From Octopus sinensis (lineage: Eukaryota), in NCBI RefSeq assembly GCF_006345805.1, contig NC_043006.1, positions 37,510,001 through 37,574,000 on the forward strand: a stretch of 64,000 bases of DNA, given 5' to 3'. The notes below the pieces were generated by a model. That model saw only the letters and a program-made list of their open reading frames with translations. It was not told where the DNA came from and made no database searches. Below, in pieces: positions 1 to 55,987 of this stretch. Position 1 is the first letter of the stretch. Every line of letters starts with the position of its first letter. The position numbers and the translations under genes were made by a program.

Positions 1-287
1 CACGCACATTTTATTATTAAGATAGATATATGCTATCGTACATTGACATTATGCAAACTATTGCACACACACACACGCATACACAAACACACTCACGAAG
101 GTTCGTTCTTTATGTTACTTGTCTTGTTTTCCATTTGTTTCTCTTGTTGTTTACATATTTCATGTTGTTTACTGTACCCATTTATGCATGTGTGTATATA
201 TATATATATATACTGTTAGTTGGGAGCAGATCTTCGAGAGGGTATGTTCTTATTTTCAGTGTTTCCAAATCCAAACCAAGGAATTTC

Positions 288-7302: not shown

Positions 7303-7476
7303 ATTTTAACTTTTCTTATTGGTGGTATCCATTACGCAACACTTGTTATATACTTTAAGGAGGTTAATAGTTATTTCCCTTAGACACAGATTCAGTTACC
7401 ATCCGTCAGCTCGGAGACAAATTTACTCTTCATTTCTAAGAGGGCGCATAACTCTTCTCCGCGGCTATAAAACCGT

Positions 7477-7790
7477 TACTCTTTACTCTTTTACTTGTTT
7501 CAGTCATTTGACTACGGCCATGCTGGAGCACCGCCTTTAGTCGAGTAAATCGACCCAGGACTTATTCTTTGTAAGCCTAGTACTTATTCTATCGGTCTCT
7601 TTTGCCGAAACGCTAAGTTACGGGAACATAAACACACCAGCATTGGTTGTCAAGCGGTTGTTCCGTCTACCAAATCCACTCACAAGGCTTTGGTCGGCCC
7701 GAGGCTATAGTAGAAGACGCCCAAGGTGCCACGCAGTGGGACTGAATCCGGAACCATGTGGTTCGTAAGCAAGCTACTTACCACACTGCC
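7477..7790 (-). mobile_element. tRNA-derived SINE family A (internally deleted copy)
   Basis: Same head/body/tail as 14585-15034, 37654-38040 and 40281-40685. Confidence 0.85.
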
Positions 7791-7869
7791 AAACCAGTGA
7801 ACTTCACAGTAATAGACCATATCACAATACTCTGATTCAGGTTATTCTAAGAACTCTTTAAACTGGCAA

Positions 7870-10271: not shown

Positions 10272-10332
<61 letters not shown>

Positions 10333-10333
<1 letters not shown>

Positions 10334-11040
10334 AATCAAATTGACTGACAGATTTTCATAGGTCAAGTTCCTTTATCATGGAAATACAAAGTACATGAAA
10401 AATTCATCGAGATGTTAGGTTTCAAGCGCTCCAATATTACATTCCGAAGAAAAGCAGTATTACAAAACCTTACGATCGTTTCGAGAAATGCGTTTGTATT
10501 GGGCAAGGTTTCCGGCCGATTCAAATATTCGCATCAGAGATACAAATAAATCGATTAAAATAGTTTAAAAATTGAGAATGCTTAATATATCTCCTACTTA
10601 CAGAACTTGAAATCATATCGAGTAAGGTTATATATTTTTTTAATGTTATAGTATTTTTTAAAAAGTTCGCAAGAATGTAGAGAGGCTTTGTGAAGTGGAA
10701 AATGCTTTAAAGTAAAACATTTGTGCGAATGAAAATGAAATTAAAAATATTTGTAAAAATAAATTAAAATGAGAACTCAAATTTCGGGCTAAACATGGTT
10801 AAATTATCTTAATCGATTTATTTGCACTTCTTATGCAAGTATTTGTATCGGTTGAGAAACTCACCCAATACAAACGCATTCCTCGAAACGATCGTAAGGT
10901 TTTGTAATACTGCTTTTGCTTTTCTTTGGATTGTAATATTATAGCGCTTGAAACTTAACATCTCGATGAATTTTTATGTACTTTTATTCCTATGATAAAG
11001 GAACTTGAACTACGAAAATCCGTCATCCACTTTGATTTTT
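10333..11040. repeat. Long inverted repeat (arms ~10333-10570 and ~10795-11040) containing a degraded hammerhead-like motif
   Basis: aaaaattcatcgagatgtta / taacatctcgatgaattttt and ccttacgatcgtttcgag / ctcgaaacgatcgtaagg are reverse complements. Confidence 0.85.
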
Positions 11041-11089: not shown

Positions 11090-11560
<471 letters not shown>

Positions 11561-14584: not shown

Positions 14585-14750
14585 AGGCGTAGGTGTGGCT
14601 GCGTGGTAAGTAACTTGCTTACGAACCACATGGTTCCGGGTTCAGTCCCACTGCATGGCACATTGGGCAAGTGTCTTCTACTATAGCCTCGGGCCTACCA
14701 AAGTCTTGTGAGTGGATTTGGTAGACGGAAACTGAAACAAGCCCGTCGTA

Positions 14751-14836
<86 letters not shown>

Positions 14837-15034
14837 AGTATGTATGTGTATATGTTTGTGTGTCTGTGTTTGTTCCCAACATCGCTTGACAATCGATGCT
14901 GGTGTGTTTACGTCCCCGTAACTTAGCGGTTCGGCAAAACAAACCGATAGAATAAGTACTAGGCTTACAAAGAATAAGTCCTGGGGTCGATTTGCTCGAC
15001 CATAGTCAAAATGACTGAAACAAGTAAAAGAGTA
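14585..15034 (+). mobile_element. tRNA-derived SINE family A, near full length
   Basis: Head aggcgtaggtgtggctgcgtggtaag with B box ggttcagtccc, CORE-like ttgggcaagtgtct, internal (TA)n(TG)n, tail gaaacaagtaaaagagta; about 20 further full or partial copies in the window. Confidence 0.9.
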
Positions 15035-32992: not shown

Positions 32993-33091
32993 GTTCATTT
33001 GCATGTGCATCCATTTATGCAGAAACATACGTGCATACATACATACGTACATACATACATACATACATACATACATACATACATACATACA

Positions 33092-33125
<34 letters not shown>

Positions 33126-33131
33126 CATACA

Positions 33132-33178
<47 letters not shown>

Positions 33179-33546
33179 TCATACATATATATGGTATTTT
33201 GAATTTATGGGAGGAAATCCCATAAAAAAACTAAACAATTTTGTTAAAAATGGAGAAGAGAAGATGTTAAAATATATAAGAGAATTTTAATTCATGCAGA
33301 CGATCGTTTCGTACAGCGATATAAAAATCATGCAAATTCATGGTTGAATAGAATTAATTACATAATTAAATTAAATTAAATTAATTATATATCACTGTAC
33401 TCTTCAGTGCAAGAAGTATAAACAAAATTTTTACAAAGGACTTGAGAAAGGAAAAAGCAGAATAGGATCTTAGAGATTCATATTTGTCCTTATGAGAAAA
33501 AGAGATGTGAATCCAGTTAGGTTATAACTAAAACTAAACACACACA

Positions 33547-33601
<55 letters not shown>

Positions 33602-33954
33602 TACATACATAAATACATATATATATACATACATACATATATACATGTATATATATATATATATTATATATATATATATATAATAGAAATATGAAAATTA
33701 TTAAGTCTCTCTAATACAGATACATAATGCATACGTACATGACACACATACCAGATATAAGGATCAAGAGTAGTGAAGGAAATTACAAAACACCATATAT
33801 ATATGTATGAGTGTGTATGTATATATATATATATATATATATATGTATGCATGTATGTATGTATGTATGTATGTATGTATGTATGTATGTATGTATGTAT
33901 GTATGTATGTGTGCACGTATGTGTCTGCATAAATGGATGCACATGCAAATGAAC
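32993..33954. repeat. Inverted repeat (arms 32993-33207 and 33780-33954) enclosing a hammerhead
   Basis: gttcatttgcatgtgcatccatttatgcaga / tctgcataaatggatgcacatgcaaatgaac plus mirrored microsatellite blocks. Confidence 0.85.
33295..33411 (-). ncRNA. Canonical type-I hammerhead ribozyme with long stem II
   Basis: Minus strand UGCA-CUGAAGA-GUACAGUGAUAUA-(AU-rich loop)-UAUAUCGCUGUAC-GAAA-C-GAUC-G-UC-UGCA; perfect core, 13-bp stem II, GUC cleavage triplet. Confidence 0.85.
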
Positions 33955-37585: not shown

Positions 37586-37653
37586 ATATACTATATACTA
37601 TATATATATAATATATATATTATAATATATATAAATATAATATATATATATTC

Positions 37654-38040
37654 ACTCTTTTACTTCTTTCAGTCATTTGACTGCGGCCATGCTTGAGCAC
37701 CCTTTAATCGAGCAACTCGACCCCGGGACTTATTCTTTGTAAGCCAGTACTTAATCTATCGGTCTCTTTTGCCGAACCGCTAGTGACGGGGACATAATCA
37801 CACCAGCATCGGTTGTCAAGCAATGCTAGGGGGACAAACACAAACATACACGCACACATATATATATACATATATACGACGGGCTTCTTTCAGTTTCCGT
37901 CTACCAAATCCACTCACAAGGCTTTGGTCGGCCCGAGGCTATAGTAGAAGACACTTGCCCAAGGTGCCACGCAGTGGGACTGAACCCGGAACCATCTGGT
38001 TGGTAAACAAGCTACTTACCACACAGCCACTCCTGCGCCT
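37654..38040 (-). mobile_element. SINE family A, full length
   Basis: Head aggcgcaggagtggctgtgtggtaag on the minus strand through to the tail. Confidence 0.9.
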
Positions 38041-40268: not shown

Positions 40269-40280
40269 TATATATATATA

Positions 40281-40685
40281 TACTCTTTTACTCTTATTTG
40301 TTTCAGTCATTTGACTGCGGCCATGCTGGAGCACCGCCTTTAATCGAGCAACTCGACCCCGGGACTTATTCTTTTGTAAGCCCAGTACTTATTCTATCGG
40401 TCTCTTTTGACGAACCGCTAAGTAACGGGGACATAAACACACCAGCATTGGTTGTCAAGCAATGCTAGGGGGACAAACACAGACACACAAACACACACAC
40501 ATATATATATTATACATATATACGACAGGCTTCTTTCAGTTTCCGTCTACCAAATCCACTCACAAGGCTTTGGTCAGCCCGAGGCTATAGTAGAAGACAC
40601 TTGCCCAAGGTGCCACGCAGTGAGACTGAACCCGGACCATGTGGTTAGTAAACAAGCTACTTACCACACTGCCACTCCTGCTCCT
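40281..40685 (-). mobile_element. SINE family A, full length
   Basis: Homologous to 37654-38040. Confidence 0.9.
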
Positions 40686-40701
40686 ATATATATATATATT
40701 A

Positions 40702-40764
<63 letters not shown>

Positions 40765-42151: not shown

Positions 42152-43357
42152 CTTTATTCACCATAAGGTTAAGAAAAAGAGGGGACAAAACAAACGTTGG
42201 GGTCGGGGTATCGAATGAGATGAAACGTATGAATAAACAAACAATTAAAATATATACAATTAAATGAGAATGAGTGAATAACAAAAAAATGAAGCGGAGG
42301 ACGCGGTTGACCCCACAAACCACATACTCACACTGAAGACTTTGCTTTCTCCTTTTTTACATTCTTGATTAAACAGGTTCTTTCACTCGCAACATACTTG
42401 CTATAGACTTCCATCTTTTACGAAACACACTTTGCGACAGGCATTTCTTCTCCAGCCTTATTTTCCGTTTCATGTGGAAAACGAAAAAGTCGATTAGCTC
42501 GAGACTGGAGATAAACATGCCTGTTGCAATTCCTTTTACTCTCGTCTTCCATACTACTTCTTTCGCCATAGCAACACGAGAGAAAACAGGCTCGCTCTCC
42601 CTATTCAGGGAGGTCGGCGGAACTATCTTAATTACAGATTCGCTCGACAGTTGTACTCTTCTCGAATGCGATACCAGGTGTTCGACATAAGCCCAGAGTT
42701 CAGTCACCTTGGGGCATTGCACAATCGCGTGCAGGACAGTTTTACTGTCCCTCTCACGTCTTGCACAAACCGGCGAAGGTGCACACCTATGTCTAAAGAG
42801 CTTATCTCGAACCGGTAAAGCTCCCCTGTAACATTGCCAGGCCAGGGACTTTTGGTAATTATCCATAGGCCCCGGACCGAATGTTCTTTGAAACAGGCTG
42901 GCCAATTGATTTTCGTCGAAGCCCAGAGTTTCTCCCAGGACGCCATCACACTTAAACTCTACTAACCCTCTATAAAAGAACGAGGTAGTACCCCCGCCAC
43001 CGGCATTGCCCGACTGGGAGAGAAGCACGAGTGCCTGATGGCACTCTACATGCCACACGCCCAACCTCGGTCTACACTTGATCCATGGGTTCAGTTCTTT
43101 AAACGATGTGAACTGTGGAAATAACAGCTTGACGAACGGAGACCAAACCTGCTCACCGTCCAGGTAAAGCCAGAGGTGCCTAAGCCTGAGCGCATGTCTG
43201 CGCATTTTTAGCCACGGCATCCCTAACCCTCCCTTCTGTGGTTTTTGGCAGCAAATAGAGCGCCTTACAAGAAGTCTGCTGTCCCTCCACAAAAAGCGAA
43301 AGAGCATGCGTTCCAGTTTGTTCAGCCACGAATCGGGGCAAGGCACGACGGTCAGGC
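42147..43357 (-). mobile_element. 5'-truncated Tx1/L1-clade LINE (ORF2 C-terminus with zf-RVT-like region) inserted in (TC)n
   Basis: Open 325-aa frame (stop at 42369) with KGGLGMP, KSLAWQCYRGALPVRDKL and C..R.RDSKTVLHAIVQCP; 3' UTR ends aataaagaaata-(TC)n; (GA)n on both flanks. Confidence 0.9.
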
Positions 43358-44085
43358 GAGAGAGCGAGAGAGAGCGAGAGAGAGAGACTATGTATACTGA
43401 AAATATTCCAGTTTATGTGAAATGGGTAGGGCTTAAGTGGACTTTATTTATGGAACGAAATAGAGTAAGATGTATCGCATGCACCTAGGTGTCGAAGCCG
43501 TGAGTAACGCTAAAAGGTTACTTAGAGCAGTTACAAAGGAGTACAAATGAAAATGTAGTAACAAACGAAAACTGCACTCCATATCACTTACAGTTCGCAA
43601 ACCTAGCTTTCATAGATTCTTTGATGTTAAGGATCATAATGAAAAGAAATCAATATGGCTTCTAACTGATTATACTTAGAGGTTTTCATTGGTCAGCTCA
43701 GCTCAGGTGAGGATATTGACAGTACAGTGGTCTGCAATCTGTGGGATTTGGAAACTTAACGTTATTAGAAAGAGAATGGAATGTGTATGCATGCTTACTG
43801 TTCATTGTAGCAATGCAACCAACCTGGTGCTATCAAGTTACTAATAAATGTGTCAGCGAAATTCGATGTAAAAGTGCACCTATTGTATAAGATTGCTCGG
43901 TTAGATTTTGCATAACTGCTCTTAGTGTAATTATAGCTGGGTGGTAGCACTGTTATGTCACTAGAAACACTATGAACAAATAGTTACATCGTCAAGGAGG
44001 CTTTCCTTCGAAACCAGATTAGTACCGTATCCCGAAATTCTGCTATCATAAACTAGAACTATCAAGAATAAAGTGTCCTGTAGAT

Positions 44086-47017: not shown

Positions 47018-47640
47018 TTAGGTCCATTCATATATACTCTATTGTATATTTAATTGCATAAAAGTGAATCATATATTGAAAAATTCACAAGAAATCTCAT
47101 ACAAAAACTGAATTACGTATGTCCACACATACATACAAAGGCATACACACATACATAGATACTTACATACATATATACATACATGCACATATGCATATAA
47201 TAGATATATACATACACACATGCATACAAGCTTGTCTGTGTCACTAAGAAGCTCACTTTGCAACCACGTGACTTCGGACTTAGTCCCACTACGCGGTATT
47301 TTGGGGAGTCTTTTACTCACCTAGATTGACCAATGCTTTGTGAGTGAATTTGACAGATGGAAAATGTGTGGAAGCCCGTCATAGATAGATAGATTTGCGT
47401 ATATGTGTATATATATATATATAATATATATATAATATATGTATGTATGTATATATATATGTATATATACATATATATTTGTATATGTAGATATGTATTT
47501 ATATATATATTATAAAATAAAATAAGAATAGGAAAATTACATCAAAAAATCATCACAGATGATATATATCCAAAATAATATTGTATTAATAGATAGATGT
47601 ATAAATATATAAAGTATGATTATTTAAAAAGTTTAAAATA

Positions 47641-47728
47641 TCTTACGATCGTTTCGTGAATGTATTGCCCTTAGAAATGGAATCTAAATTTGATATTCAT
47701 TATTAGGTAATACATTCACTCATCAGAG
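47641..47728 (-). ncRNA. Type-I hammerhead motif with long stem II, stem I clipped at Helitron junction
   Basis: Minus strand CU-CUGAUGA-GUGAAUGUAUU...AAUACAUUCAC-GAAA-C-GAUC-G-UA-AG; 11-bp perfect stem II. Confidence 0.75.
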
Positions 47729-49185
47729 TGGGTTGTAGGCTGACCAGTCTGTAGGAGTGATCTCATGTTAATGGTGAGTTGTTTCGATTGGACATGCGAC
47801 AAAGGAGGAATTTTTAAGGCAGGCATTAAGTTCATCAGCGGGTGTTCCTTTGAGTATAATAGGTAGAGTTTGTCGAAAATCTCCTGCAAGAAGTAGAGTC
47901 GCACCTCCAAGCATGTTGTTGTTTGACCTAAAGTCTCTCATTGTGGTATCAAATGCTTGTAGGGAACATTTATGGGACATAGTTGCTTCATCCCAATCAA
48001 TGAGTTTGCACTTTTTCAAAACTGTCGCTTCGTCCGAGGAATGCATTATGTACCACGTAGGGTTTCTTGATGTGCTACATTGAAAGGCAATTTGAAGGTA
48101 GAGTGTGTTGTTCGTCTGCTGCCGAGAAGAGTCGAGGCTATTCCTGAGGGGGCAACAGCAATAGCAAGGTCACCATTATGCCGCAACTTCGCAAGAAGAT
48201 TCAGAAGGAACGTTTTTCCAGTTCCAACGGATGCAACTAAGAAGCTGATTCCGCCAGTGTTTGTGTAGATGTTTCCGAGGACGAAATTGTATACGTCAGC
48301 TTGATCGGAATTTAGAAGGGGCTCGTTGTCAGCAATGGACTGTTTGAGTTTGTGGATATTGTAGGATGTTTCTCTGAGAATGTGGCGATGGAGACAGACG
48401 TCTTTATTTCTGTCTGGAGTGTTGAGAGAATAAGCGTCCAATCGTTGACCTCCAATTGCTACAACCAAATCTTCCAAGAGAAGAATCCCTCCGTTGTAAA
48501 TGGCAGGAATAGTGGGAGTGTCAACGCTACCTGTGATTTGGCGAGTCTGCAACAAAATGACATGGCACATTGAGTCTTAGTATTTATTCCAAAGTGTGTG
48601 TGTGTCTGTCAGGTTGCAGAAAACCAGGATTATTGCGAAGCTTGTATGGAGAACGACACAGAGAGGCCTCTTCAAGTGCATTATCATATTGGTCCTCTGT
48701 ATCCGTTTGAAGCAGGCATCTTTGAAAGTGCCACATAAGTTGCCGTCCACTGTGCGAAGGTCGTCGAAGGAGTTTGGCATGAAGTAAAAGCTTCAGATGG
48801 AAGCTTTCGCAGTTCAGAGGGTGAATTGTGTTGACTGCGTAGGCCGGCCTTGTTTTCGTCATTGAATTCTACGTTGATGTGTGCATGAAATGTTTTGAAG
48901 AGCTTCTTGTTGTAGGGGATGATCCACCGATTGTCAACCAAAAATTCCTGGTTATGACCTTTTTCGATGATTATTGCGTAAGGGAGAAAATCAATTTCTG
49001 ACTGTTACTTCGCAAAATACAGACCTTTTGACGCTAGAAGCCCCATTACTCCTTATTACAGCATAAGTGAAAACTCTAAATAGTGTAGAGCTATCTGTGG
49101 AACATAAGTGATGTATTAGCCAAGCGTGAACGAAATCGGATGAAAAATATTGATTTTGCGCGGGATCAGCGTAATGGTCGGTCAC

Positions 49186-50821: not shown

Positions 50822-51201
50822 CTCTTTTAATCTCTTTTACACGATTCAGTCATTTGATTGCGGCCATGCTAGAGCACCGCCTTTGGTCGAACAAATAGAT
50901 CCCAGGACTTATTCTTTGTAAGCTAAGTACTTATTCCATCCGTCCCTTTTGCCGAACCGCTAAGTTACGGGCACGTAAACACATCACCAACTGTTGTCAA
51001 GCGATAGTGGGGGACAAACACAGACACACAAACATATACACACACGATGGGTTTCTTTCAGTTTCTGTCTACCAAATCCACCCACAAGGCTTCGGTCGGG
51101 CCGAGGCTATTGTAGAAGACACTTGCCCAAAATGCCAAGTAGTGGGACTGAACCCGGAACCCGTGTGGTTGGAAAGCTAGCTTCTTACCATACAGCCACA
51201 C
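50822..51201 (-). mobile_element. SINE family A
   Basis: Homology; an extra tail fragment lies at 50605-50720. Confidence 0.85.
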
Positions 51202-55560: not shown

Positions 55561-55987
55561 TTACTTGTTTCAGACCTTTGACTGCGGCCATGCTGGAGCA
55601 CCGCCTGTAATCGAGCAAATCGACCCCAGGACTCATTCTTTGTAAGCCTAGTAGTTATTTTATCGGTTCCTTTAGTCGAACCGCTAAGTTTGCGGGGACG
55701 TAAATACATCGGTTGTCAAGTGATGCTACGGAGACAAACACAGACACACAAATATATACATACATACATACACACACACACATACATACATACATACATA
55801 CATACATACATACATACATACATACATACATACATACATACGACGGGCTTCTTTCGGTTTCCGTCTACCAAATCCAATCACAAGGCTATAGTAGAAGACA
55901 CTTGCCCAAGATGTCACACAGTGGGACTGAACCCGGAACCATGTGGTTGGGAAGTAAGCTTCTTACCACACAGCTACGCTCGCGCCT
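55561..55987 (-). mobile_element. SINE family A with internal (TACA)n
   Basis: Homology to other family A copies. Confidence 0.85.

What the first reader, a model, noticed from the sequence alone, without database searches (positions are those of the whole stretch)
33295..33411. Fully canonical hammerhead with 13-bp stem II and large AU-rich loop: best candidate for activity
Seen on the minus strand: UGCA/UGCA stem I, CUGAAGA, 13-bp stem II (one G-U) capped by a ~64-nt AU-rich loop, then GAAA-C-GAUC-G-UC. Predicted cleavage falls between plus coordinates 33299 and 33298. The copy at 47641 has the same GAAAC-GAUC-GU junction with a completely different long stem II, so structure is conserved without sequence. 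Inference: a long-stem-II subclass of minimal hammerheads.
Basis: partly seen in the sequence, partly recalled or inferred. Interest (0 to 1): 0.75.

Follow-up and report, generated by a model that had tools for sequence, protein, structure and literature searches.

The report
Long-armed hammerhead in Penelope-like retroelement
This is a well-preserved hammerhead self-cutting RNA motif at the end of a truncated copy of a known kind of animal jumping gene; its side arm is much longer than in the published examples I could see, and it is predicted, but untested, to cut only when two copies pair.

Summary
The motif is real and exactly as described. It is a type I hammerhead in a ~350-bp, 5'-truncated terminal-repeat fragment of a Penelope-like retroelement (PLE) inserted in a microsatellite. 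Longer copies link it to an RT/endonuclease ORF with Hydra-clade signatures (RWK, DKT, CxCX5C). Across subfamilies 7 of 13 stem II pairs change on both sides. The monomer is predicted inactive (~0.4% active fold); the homodimer's best fold is the classic double hammerhead. Hammerheads in Hydra PLEs are published. What is new is size: stem II 12-13 bp and 72-100 nt between the core halves, against 3-7 bp stems and 3-10 nt loops; Rfam (15.3 bits, cutoff 34) and the published descriptor miss it. It is the long end of a continuum (about 19-100 nt; 6,729 exact-core copies share this stem III palindrome), not a discrete subclass. The 47641 copy belongs to another PLE family and keeps only 2 bp of stem I. 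'Best candidate' holds within the window, but a sister family is far younger. No evidence of cleavage was found. The scan noted similar long-stem motifs on other DNA.

The parts
33408..33411 (-). Stem I, 5' strand (UGCA)
33401..33407 (-). Catalytic core, first half, C3-A9 (CUGAAGA)
33388..33400 (-). Stem II, 5' arm (13 nt)
   Evidence: (pair probabilities 0.88-1.00)
33324..33387 (-). 64-nt AU-rich loop II made of TTAAT-like repeats plus a small CAUG...CAUG hairpin; length varies between copies
33311..33323 (-). Stem II, 3' arm
33299..33310 (-). GAA, palindromic stem III ACGAUCGU (33307-33300) and C17; predicted cut between 33299 and 33298
33295..33298 (-). Stem I, 3' strand (UGCA)
33204..33226 (-). 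9-bp hairpin about 15 nt before the element's short 3' end; at least 6 of 7 pairs kept in 22 of 30 lineage copies
33190..33538 (-). Whole insertion: 5'-truncated pLTR fragment of a Hydra-type PLE, from -233 to +108 relative to the cut, ending at the family's short 3' end
   Evidence: 85.6% over 362 nt to the longer copy L032
33025..33189 (.). (ACAT)n/(AT)n microsatellite flank at the 3' end
33539..33682 (.). (AC)n/(AT)n microsatellite flank at the truncated 5' end
47642..47728 (-). Hammerhead of a second, sequence-unrelated PLE family: core 47726-47720, 11-bp stem II, same palindrome, GUA triplet, only 2 bp of stem I; fragment spans about 47504-47728

Best explanation
This is the type I hammerhead of the terminal repeat (pLTR) of a Penelope-like retrotransposon, most likely of the Hydra clade, left here as a 5'-truncated fragment, and it is predicted to cut RNA only as a dimer. 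Shown: the motif, its place in the element (about 1.8 kb after the endonuclease stop; in an upstream pLTR the cut lies about 310 nt before the ORF start), the two fixed 3' ends, and compensatory changes in stem II. Inferred: in a transcript with two pLTRs, or between two RNAs, the ACGAUCGU palindromes pair into an 8-bp stem III and stem I forms between partners, giving the double hammerhead that would cut after GUC, probably slowly and possibly helped by the element's protein, as reported for the Anolis PLE. The long stem II is inferred to be a stable scaffold under selection for pairing, with a loop whose length is tolerated rather than needed. This solo copy is probably an inert relic in the cell, although its RNA should be a good test substrate.
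For: Dispersed repeat: 45 matches from 40 scored of 842 candidates; the best other full-length copies are 87-94% identical. 8 of 10 extended endonuclease-hit loci carry this pLTR linked to the ORF end or start. L090 has pLTR then ORF, ATG at +313 from the cut. RWK in L090, DKT in L092, CxCX5C in L090/L075, CxxC...CxH in the endonuclease tail match the Hydra definition. The RT piece is 43% identical (E 4e-54) to a near-complete sister element with all these motifs; its Atlas look-alikes are eukaryotic RVT_1/HTH_animal clusters, score 0.95-0.97. 32 of 37 family hits end at about +95..108 or +224 and beyond, and inverted pairs usually have one arm of each: the PLE tail signature. Stem II: 7 of 13 pairs changed on both sides, 86.6% cells paired, 0 of 500 shuffles reach the covariation score. 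Monomer active fold 0.4-0.6%; unconstrained homodimer MFE is the double hammerhead, -62.0 against 2 x -25.8 kcal/mol. PLE hammerheads with palindromic helix III are described as dimer-acting with low activity; the Anolis one needs protein.
Against: No cleavage shown. RNA reads from a related organism (46, 41 and 31 reads in three runs) cross the cut site with no pile-up of ends, at low depth and in both orientations. Genomic 5' ends of the family do not gather at the cut: 1 of 30 starts at +1; 1 of 3 copies abutting (TA)n. Only 10 of 31 lineage copies have the active dimer as MFE. The 31 copies were chosen by a pattern fixing core, stem III and two stem I pairs, so those columns say nothing; related copies can beat the shuffles without structure (caveat). 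Pfam finds no RT or GIY-YIG family in the decayed pieces (0 significant among the 6 PLE fragments). No tree with published Hydra proteins was made. The unit is about 4.6-4.8 kb, against 'generally <3 kb' for Hydra.
Confidence: 0.8

Rival explanations
1. The long stem II and its structured loop are functional: a docking site for the element's protein or a tertiary contact that replaces the usual loop I-loop II contact, making this a distinct, faster or protein-switched hammerhead form.
For: 12 stem pairs are kept by compensatory change; many unrelated families carry long arms; a CATG-N5-8-CATG hairpin is exact in 14 of 31 loops; a PLE hammerhead is known to be protein-assisted.
Against: Insert length varies 72-100 nt inside one lineage and from about 19 nt upward between families with the same stem III; loop sequence is not shared between families; a possible 7-bp AU-rich pairing between the loop and the sequence after stem I is not kept in the subfamilies whose flank differs (by eye).
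Confidence: 0.2
2. The hammerhead is kept as a structure (dimer clamp, landmark for reverse transcription or translation) and cleavage is negligible in the element's cycle.
For: In the Anolis PLE, ribozyme mutants do not affect insertion and no reads end at the cut. In the young sister family 14 of the 50 listed inversion junctions (of 78) fall within about 5 nt of the cut, yet one arm nearly always carries 1-5 nt from upstream of it, so uncut RNA was copied.
Against: The catalytic core and an NUH triplet are exact in thousands of copies of unrelated families, which argues for selection on catalysis. A second junction peak (8 of 50) sits on a TTGCAA palindrome, so short palindromes alone can make such peaks.
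Confidence: 0.2
3. A non-autonomous retrozyme or SINE-like unit with its own circular RNA rather than a PLE end.
For: Most copies are short and non-coding; retrozymes are proposed to derive from pLTRs (abstract only).
Against: No direct tandem of short monomers was seen in 30 loci; close second copies are inverted; 5' ends vary and longer copies run into 3' UTR and ORF.
Confidence: 0.04
4. Chance fold in AU-rich repeat DNA.
For: Rfam Hammerhead_1 scores only 15.3 bits, E 0.5, and no hammerhead is among the 150 rows shown of the whole-window scan.
Against: 1,856 and 4,873 exact genome matches against 3 and 4 for the reversed pattern; 0 hits in 200 controls; covariation.
Confidence: 0.01

Closest known systems
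Hammerheads of Hydra-clade PLEs (Craig et al. 2021, PMC8557442; section 11, passages and supplement part 2 of 59 with Files S1/S2 read), e.g. Hydra-1_oBim
   Same: Type I hammerhead near the 3' end; RWK, DKT, CxCX5C, CxxC/CxH motifs; (TA)n targets; inverted 5'-truncated partner copies.
   Different: Listed Hydra hammerheads have stem II of 3-7 bp, loop 2 of 3-10 nt and stem III of 3-4 bp with 1-3 nt loops; GAAACGATCGT has 0 hits in that supplement. Here 12-13 bp, 72-100 nt insert, 2 bp plus palindromic tetraloop; unit about 4.8 kb with a 1.8-kb 3' UTR; tail about 130 nt against 30-40 bp.
min-HHRs and small-palindromic-helix-III variants of metazoan PLEs (Cervera and De la Pena 2014, PMC4209133; parts 1-2 of 4 and supplement passages read)
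   Same: In pLTRs, mostly solo or opposite-strand copies, short helix I, enlarged helix II, palindromic helix III, dimer-dependent.
   Different: Their helix II is 6-8 bp and the example descriptor caps it at 7 bp with a 10-nt loop and allows no helix III insert; the extra nucleotide between 9 and 10.1 is absent here.
PAc Poseidon PLE hammerhead of Anolis (PMC11167929; passages and half of the main section read)
   Same: pLTR hammerhead upstream of two fixed 3' ends set by internal reverse-transcription starts in AC-rich sequence.
   Different: Different clade; there the ORF starts at stem II, here about 310 nt after the cut; tail much longer here.
Animal non-LTR retrozymes (PMC7229834, passages read)
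   Same: Type I hammerhead with 2-bp stem III and tetraloop in AU-rich repeats.
   Different: Retrozymes are direct tandem arrays of about 300-nt non-coding monomers, many with loop 1-loop 2 contacts; not seen here.
PLE-X1_sMoe hammerhead (PMC8557442 File S2)
   Same: A PLE hammerhead with enlarged stem II (9 bp) and a 34-nt loop, so some enlargement has precedent.
   Different: Plant, endonuclease-less Chlamys-related element; smaller arm; marked by the authors as deviating from canonical.

Membership tests
Type I hammerhead ribozyme | Core CUGANGA...GAAA, A15.1-U16.1, NUH triplet | tested here: met
Type I hammerhead ribozyme | Three helices, helix I open-ended | tested here: met
   helix III is stable only in the dimer model
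Type I hammerhead ribozyme | Self-cleavage after H17 | not testable with these tools
   RNA reads too sparse and from a related organism
Canonical (tertiary-stabilised) hammerhead | Loop I-loop II tertiary contact or pseudoknot | tested here: inconclusive
   No conserved contact seen by eye in 30 copies; loop too variable to align
min-HHR of Cervera and De la Pena | No helix III insert (GAAANNUH) | tested here: not met
   Descriptor; here 2 bp plus tetraloop
min-HHR of Cervera and De la Pena | Extra nucleotide between 9 and 10.1 | tested here: not met
   G10.1 follows A9 directly
Rfam RF00163 Hammerhead_1 | Gathering score 34 bits | tested here: not met
   15.3 bits, all 45 model positions aligned around the insert
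Penelope-like element | RT plus GIY-YIG-type endonuclease ORF joined to pLTRs | tested here: met
   Linked decayed copies, Atlas, similarity to L223; the GIY-YIG label rests on motif reading and on the paper, not on a Pfam hit
Penelope-like element | 5' truncation, inverted partner copies, tail on one end | tested here: met
Hydra clade | RWK motif | tested here: met
   L090 RMRWKA; sister L223
Hydra clade | DKT in place of DKG | tested here: met
   L092; L223
Hydra clade | CxCX5C linker; no CCHH; CxxC and CxH around the conserved E and N | tested here: met
   L075, L090; L223; read by eye
Hydra clade | Insertion into (TA)n | tested here: met
   Ends abut (TA)n or (CA)n
Hydra clade | Length generally under 3 kb (descriptive in the paper, not diagnostic) | tested here: not met
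   About 4.8 kb from L090/L094; 4,581-bp period in L223
Hydra clade | Grouping with Hydra RTs in a tree | not tested
   Reference proteins were not available as tool sequences
Non-LTR retrozyme | Direct tandem arrays of short non-coding monomers | tested here: not met
   None seen in 30 loci

The most novel reading that the evidence does not exclude
Animal PLEs carry a large, overlooked population of long-armed hammerheads whose extended stem II is a docking arm for the element's own RT, and whose shared 8-nt stem III palindromes (ACGAUCGU, 6,729 exact copies; ACAGCUGU, 6,552) let unrelated families pair: stem I decides whether the pair cuts, so one family's RNA could block another's. The paired junction would also halt reverse transcription, giving the peak of inversion junctions at the cut site.
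Probability: 0.15. Interest if true: 0.65.

Novelty: new variant of a known kind. Interest (0 to 1): 0.33.

Why it matters
Published counts and size ranges of PLE hammerheads come from descriptors that cannot see these motifs, so both are underestimates: one genome holds over 13,000 exact-core copies with just two stem III palindromes, many with long arms. The role of PLE hammerheads is an open question; natural series with the same core and stem III but arms from about 19 to 100 nt, and a very young family with sharp two-armed insertions, make it easier to test. The locus itself is an ordinary retroelement relic.

Tried and rejected
Whole-window Rfam scan: the 150 rows shown of 218 are microsatellite-driven miRNA-type hits. 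Pfam on the decayed PLE pieces: nothing significant. Sequencing runs: no RNA holder listed. Reads laid on the young family gave 1, 0 and 0 reads, no test. Intron in loop II: no joints, but depth was low and 41 letters at repeats were skipped. ORF start inside the hammerhead, as in Anolis: rejected, the ORF with the family N-terminus starts at +313. RNAalifold recovers only 5 stem II pairs and an inactive core pairing. Twin hairpins before both ends: seen in this lineage, but no hairpin is predicted just before the +41 end of the young family. The young family's homodimer MFE is not the active form; the constrained calculation crashed and was dropped. Lunse et al. (PMC5785218) is not held; only its title was seen, and it may already list long-stem variants. 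One supplement file of PMC4209133 could not be searched. Searches for a description of long-stem-II PLE hammerheads found none.

Full report
Observation. A full descriptor finds this one hit in the window and none in 200 Markov controls. Rfam aligns all 45 positions of Hammerhead_1 to it but scores only 15.3 bits against a cutoff of 34, so routine annotation misses it.

Host element. The motif lies in a dispersed repeat (842 candidates, 40 scored, 45 matches; closest other copy 94%). In the window it spans about 33190-33538, from -233 to +108 relative to the cut, between microsatellites. Longer copies extend upstream through about 1.8 kb of non-coding sequence to the end of an ORF with a CxxC...E...N...CxH tail. 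I took the 20 best of 150 scored hits of that tail and extended 10 of them: 8 carry the same hammerhead-bearing repeat linked to the ORF. In L090 the repeat lies upstream and leads into the ORF start at +313 from the cut, the pLTR arrangement. The decayed ORF shows RWK, DKT and CxCX5C, the signatures that PMC8557442 gives for the Hydra clade of Penelope-like elements (section 11). A near-complete element of a sister family (L223, 4,581-bp period, ORF split over two frames) has all of them and is 43% identical over 223 RT residues. Pfam does not recognise the decayed pieces; the Atlas places the RT piece with eukaryotic RVT_1/HTH_animal clusters. No tree was built, and the unit is longer than the usual Hydra length, so the clade is likely, not proven.

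PLE insertion anatomy. Of 37 family hits that reach the cut, 12 end at +95..108 and 20 at +224 or beyond (2 upstream-only hits left out). Inverted pairs mostly have one arm of each kind. This is the PLE 'tail', which PMC11167929 ties to two internal reverse-transcription starts, but here it is about 130 nt rather than 30-40 bp. The window copy has the short end. A hairpin just before that end keeps at least 6 of 7 pairs in 22 of 30 copies, with G-C in 12 and A-U in 9 at one position (a few rows are misregistered by the fuzzy match).

Is stem II selected? 100 genome copies of this lineage match the exact core, junction and two stem I pairs. I aligned the window copy with 30 distinct copies from the first 30 loci. 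Seven of 13 stem II pairs change on both sides, four of them in 5-14 copies; 86.6% of stem II cells pair; 0 of 500 shuffles reach the covariation score and slid controls pair 16-50%. The thirteenth pair holds in only 14 of 31, and one subfamily has a 2-nt mismatch in mid-stem. These are a few ancestral events shared by subfamilies, and the count of covarying pairs does not beat the shuffles (174 of 500). The insert ranges from 72 to 100 nt, mostly by TTAAT-like repeats, so loop length is not fixed.

Is it a subclass? The exact pattern CTGANGA-N-GAAACGATCGTH has 1,856 matches with a 60-95-nt insert (reversed control 3) and 4,873 with 8-59 nt (control 4). The listed rows show many unrelated families with inserts from about 19 nt upward; most of the long ones folded give long hairpins. 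A second palindrome, ACAGCUGU, has 6,552 matches with both short and long arms (control 7). Long arms are therefore common and graded. Published Hydra hammerheads have 3-7-bp stems and 3-10-nt loops (File S2), and the example descriptor of PMC4209133 caps them at 7 bp and 10 nt, so the published range is censored by method. Six searches found no description of 12-14-bp arms with 40-70-nt loops; Lunse et al. could not be read. Earlier notes of this scan report the same on other genomes.

The 47641 copy. It belongs to another family (373 candidates) with a GUA triplet and a 3-bp stem I in most relatives. Two of its 30 loci hold RT pieces similar to L090, so it is likely also a Hydra-type PLE. 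The window copy starts 2 nt upstream of its core, beside a PIF1 helicase remnant, keeps 2 bp of stem I and has a predicted active fraction of 3e-5.

Mechanism. As a monomer the motif is predicted to mispair its core with the palindrome; the active fold has 0.4-0.6% of the ensemble. Two copies fold, without constraints, into the double hammerhead with an 8-bp intermolecular stem III, -62.0 against 2 x -25.8 kcal/mol. This is the MFE in 10 of 31 lineage copies, the window copy among them. Dimer action and low rates are established for PLE hammerheads, and protein assistance is shown for one. Because stem I forms between partners, a pair from two families is predicted to form stem III only, without stem I.

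Evidence on cleavage in vivo is absent. Reads from a related organism cross the site without a pile-up (46, 41, 31 reads). In this family 1 of 30 copies begins at +1 and 1 of 3 next to (TA)n. In the young family (99-100% identical) 16 of 30 loci have an inverted arm ending at about +41 beside one ending at about +154, often truncated at nearly the same point. Of 78 short inversion junctions, 50 were listed; 14 lie at the cut site (binomial 3e-7 against a flat spread) and 8 at a TTGCAA palindrome. One arm nearly always carries 1-5 nt from upstream of the cut and the site holds a GTAC palindrome, so this does not show a cut template.

Verdict. A real, well-preserved hammerhead of a known retroelement class, in a size variant that standard searches miss. 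New variant of a known kind; interest 0.33. Hammerhead numbering and the GIY-YIG label are from my own knowledge and the cited papers, not from a profile hit. Papers seen: PMC4209133 (parts 1-2 of 4, supplement passages), PMC8557442 and its preprint (passages, section 11, supplement part 2 of 59), PMC11167929 (passages, half of the main section), PMC6765202, PMC3088659, PMC7229834, PMC13725137 (passages), 10.64898/2026.07.22.740005 (abstract).

Noticed in passing
window 10330-11020 (10482 -, 10885 +): Two further degenerate hammerheads with the same ACGAUCGU palindrome in inverted orientation about 400 bp apart, a third family with a typical two-armed insertion.
   Followed up: partly
window 10032 (-), 21848 (+), 34412 (-), 45908 (+), 324 (+): Degenerate hammerhead-like junctions with other palindromes (ACAGCUGU four times, ACGUACGU once); ACAGCUGU has 6,552 exact-core matches in the genome.
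   Followed up: partly
window 32993-33206 and 33781-33954: Inverted duplication (about 89%) of the element's last ~20 nt plus ~170 nt of its flank, including non-repetitive sequence, around the insertion; origin unexplained.
   Followed up: partly
L223:2900-8100: Very young, near-complete Hydra-type PLE: inverted truncated pLTR, pLTR, ORF split over two frames, pLTR; period 4,581 bp; family copies 99-100% identical.
   Followed up: partly
L193-L222, L224-L238: In the young family the two arms of an insertion end at +41 and +154 and are often truncated at the same distance upstream (e.g. -248/-248, -327/-327, -565/-565), suggesting fold-back or two cDNAs from one template; junctions peak at the cut site and at a loop palindrome.
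   Followed up: partly
window 47771-48573 (-): Broken PIF1-like helicase (Pfam PF05970, E 3.5e-18 and 2.3e-19), probably a Helitron remnant, next to the second hammerhead.
   Followed up: no
window 42369-43412 (-): 347-aa ORF with a weak zf-RVT match (E 2.5e-5), probably a LINE remnant.
   Followed up: no
window 7476-7791, 11095-11560, 14587-15000, 37651-38038, 40276-40751, 50822-51199, 55561-55977 and others: An abundant ~430-bp SINE-like repeat with an internal microsatellite, also inserted in the 3' UTR of the PLE copy L032.
   Followed up: no
window 39661 (-) and 40186 (+): Near-identical inverted pair of about 110 nt or more ending in GAAACATGTT, without an intact core.
   Followed up: no
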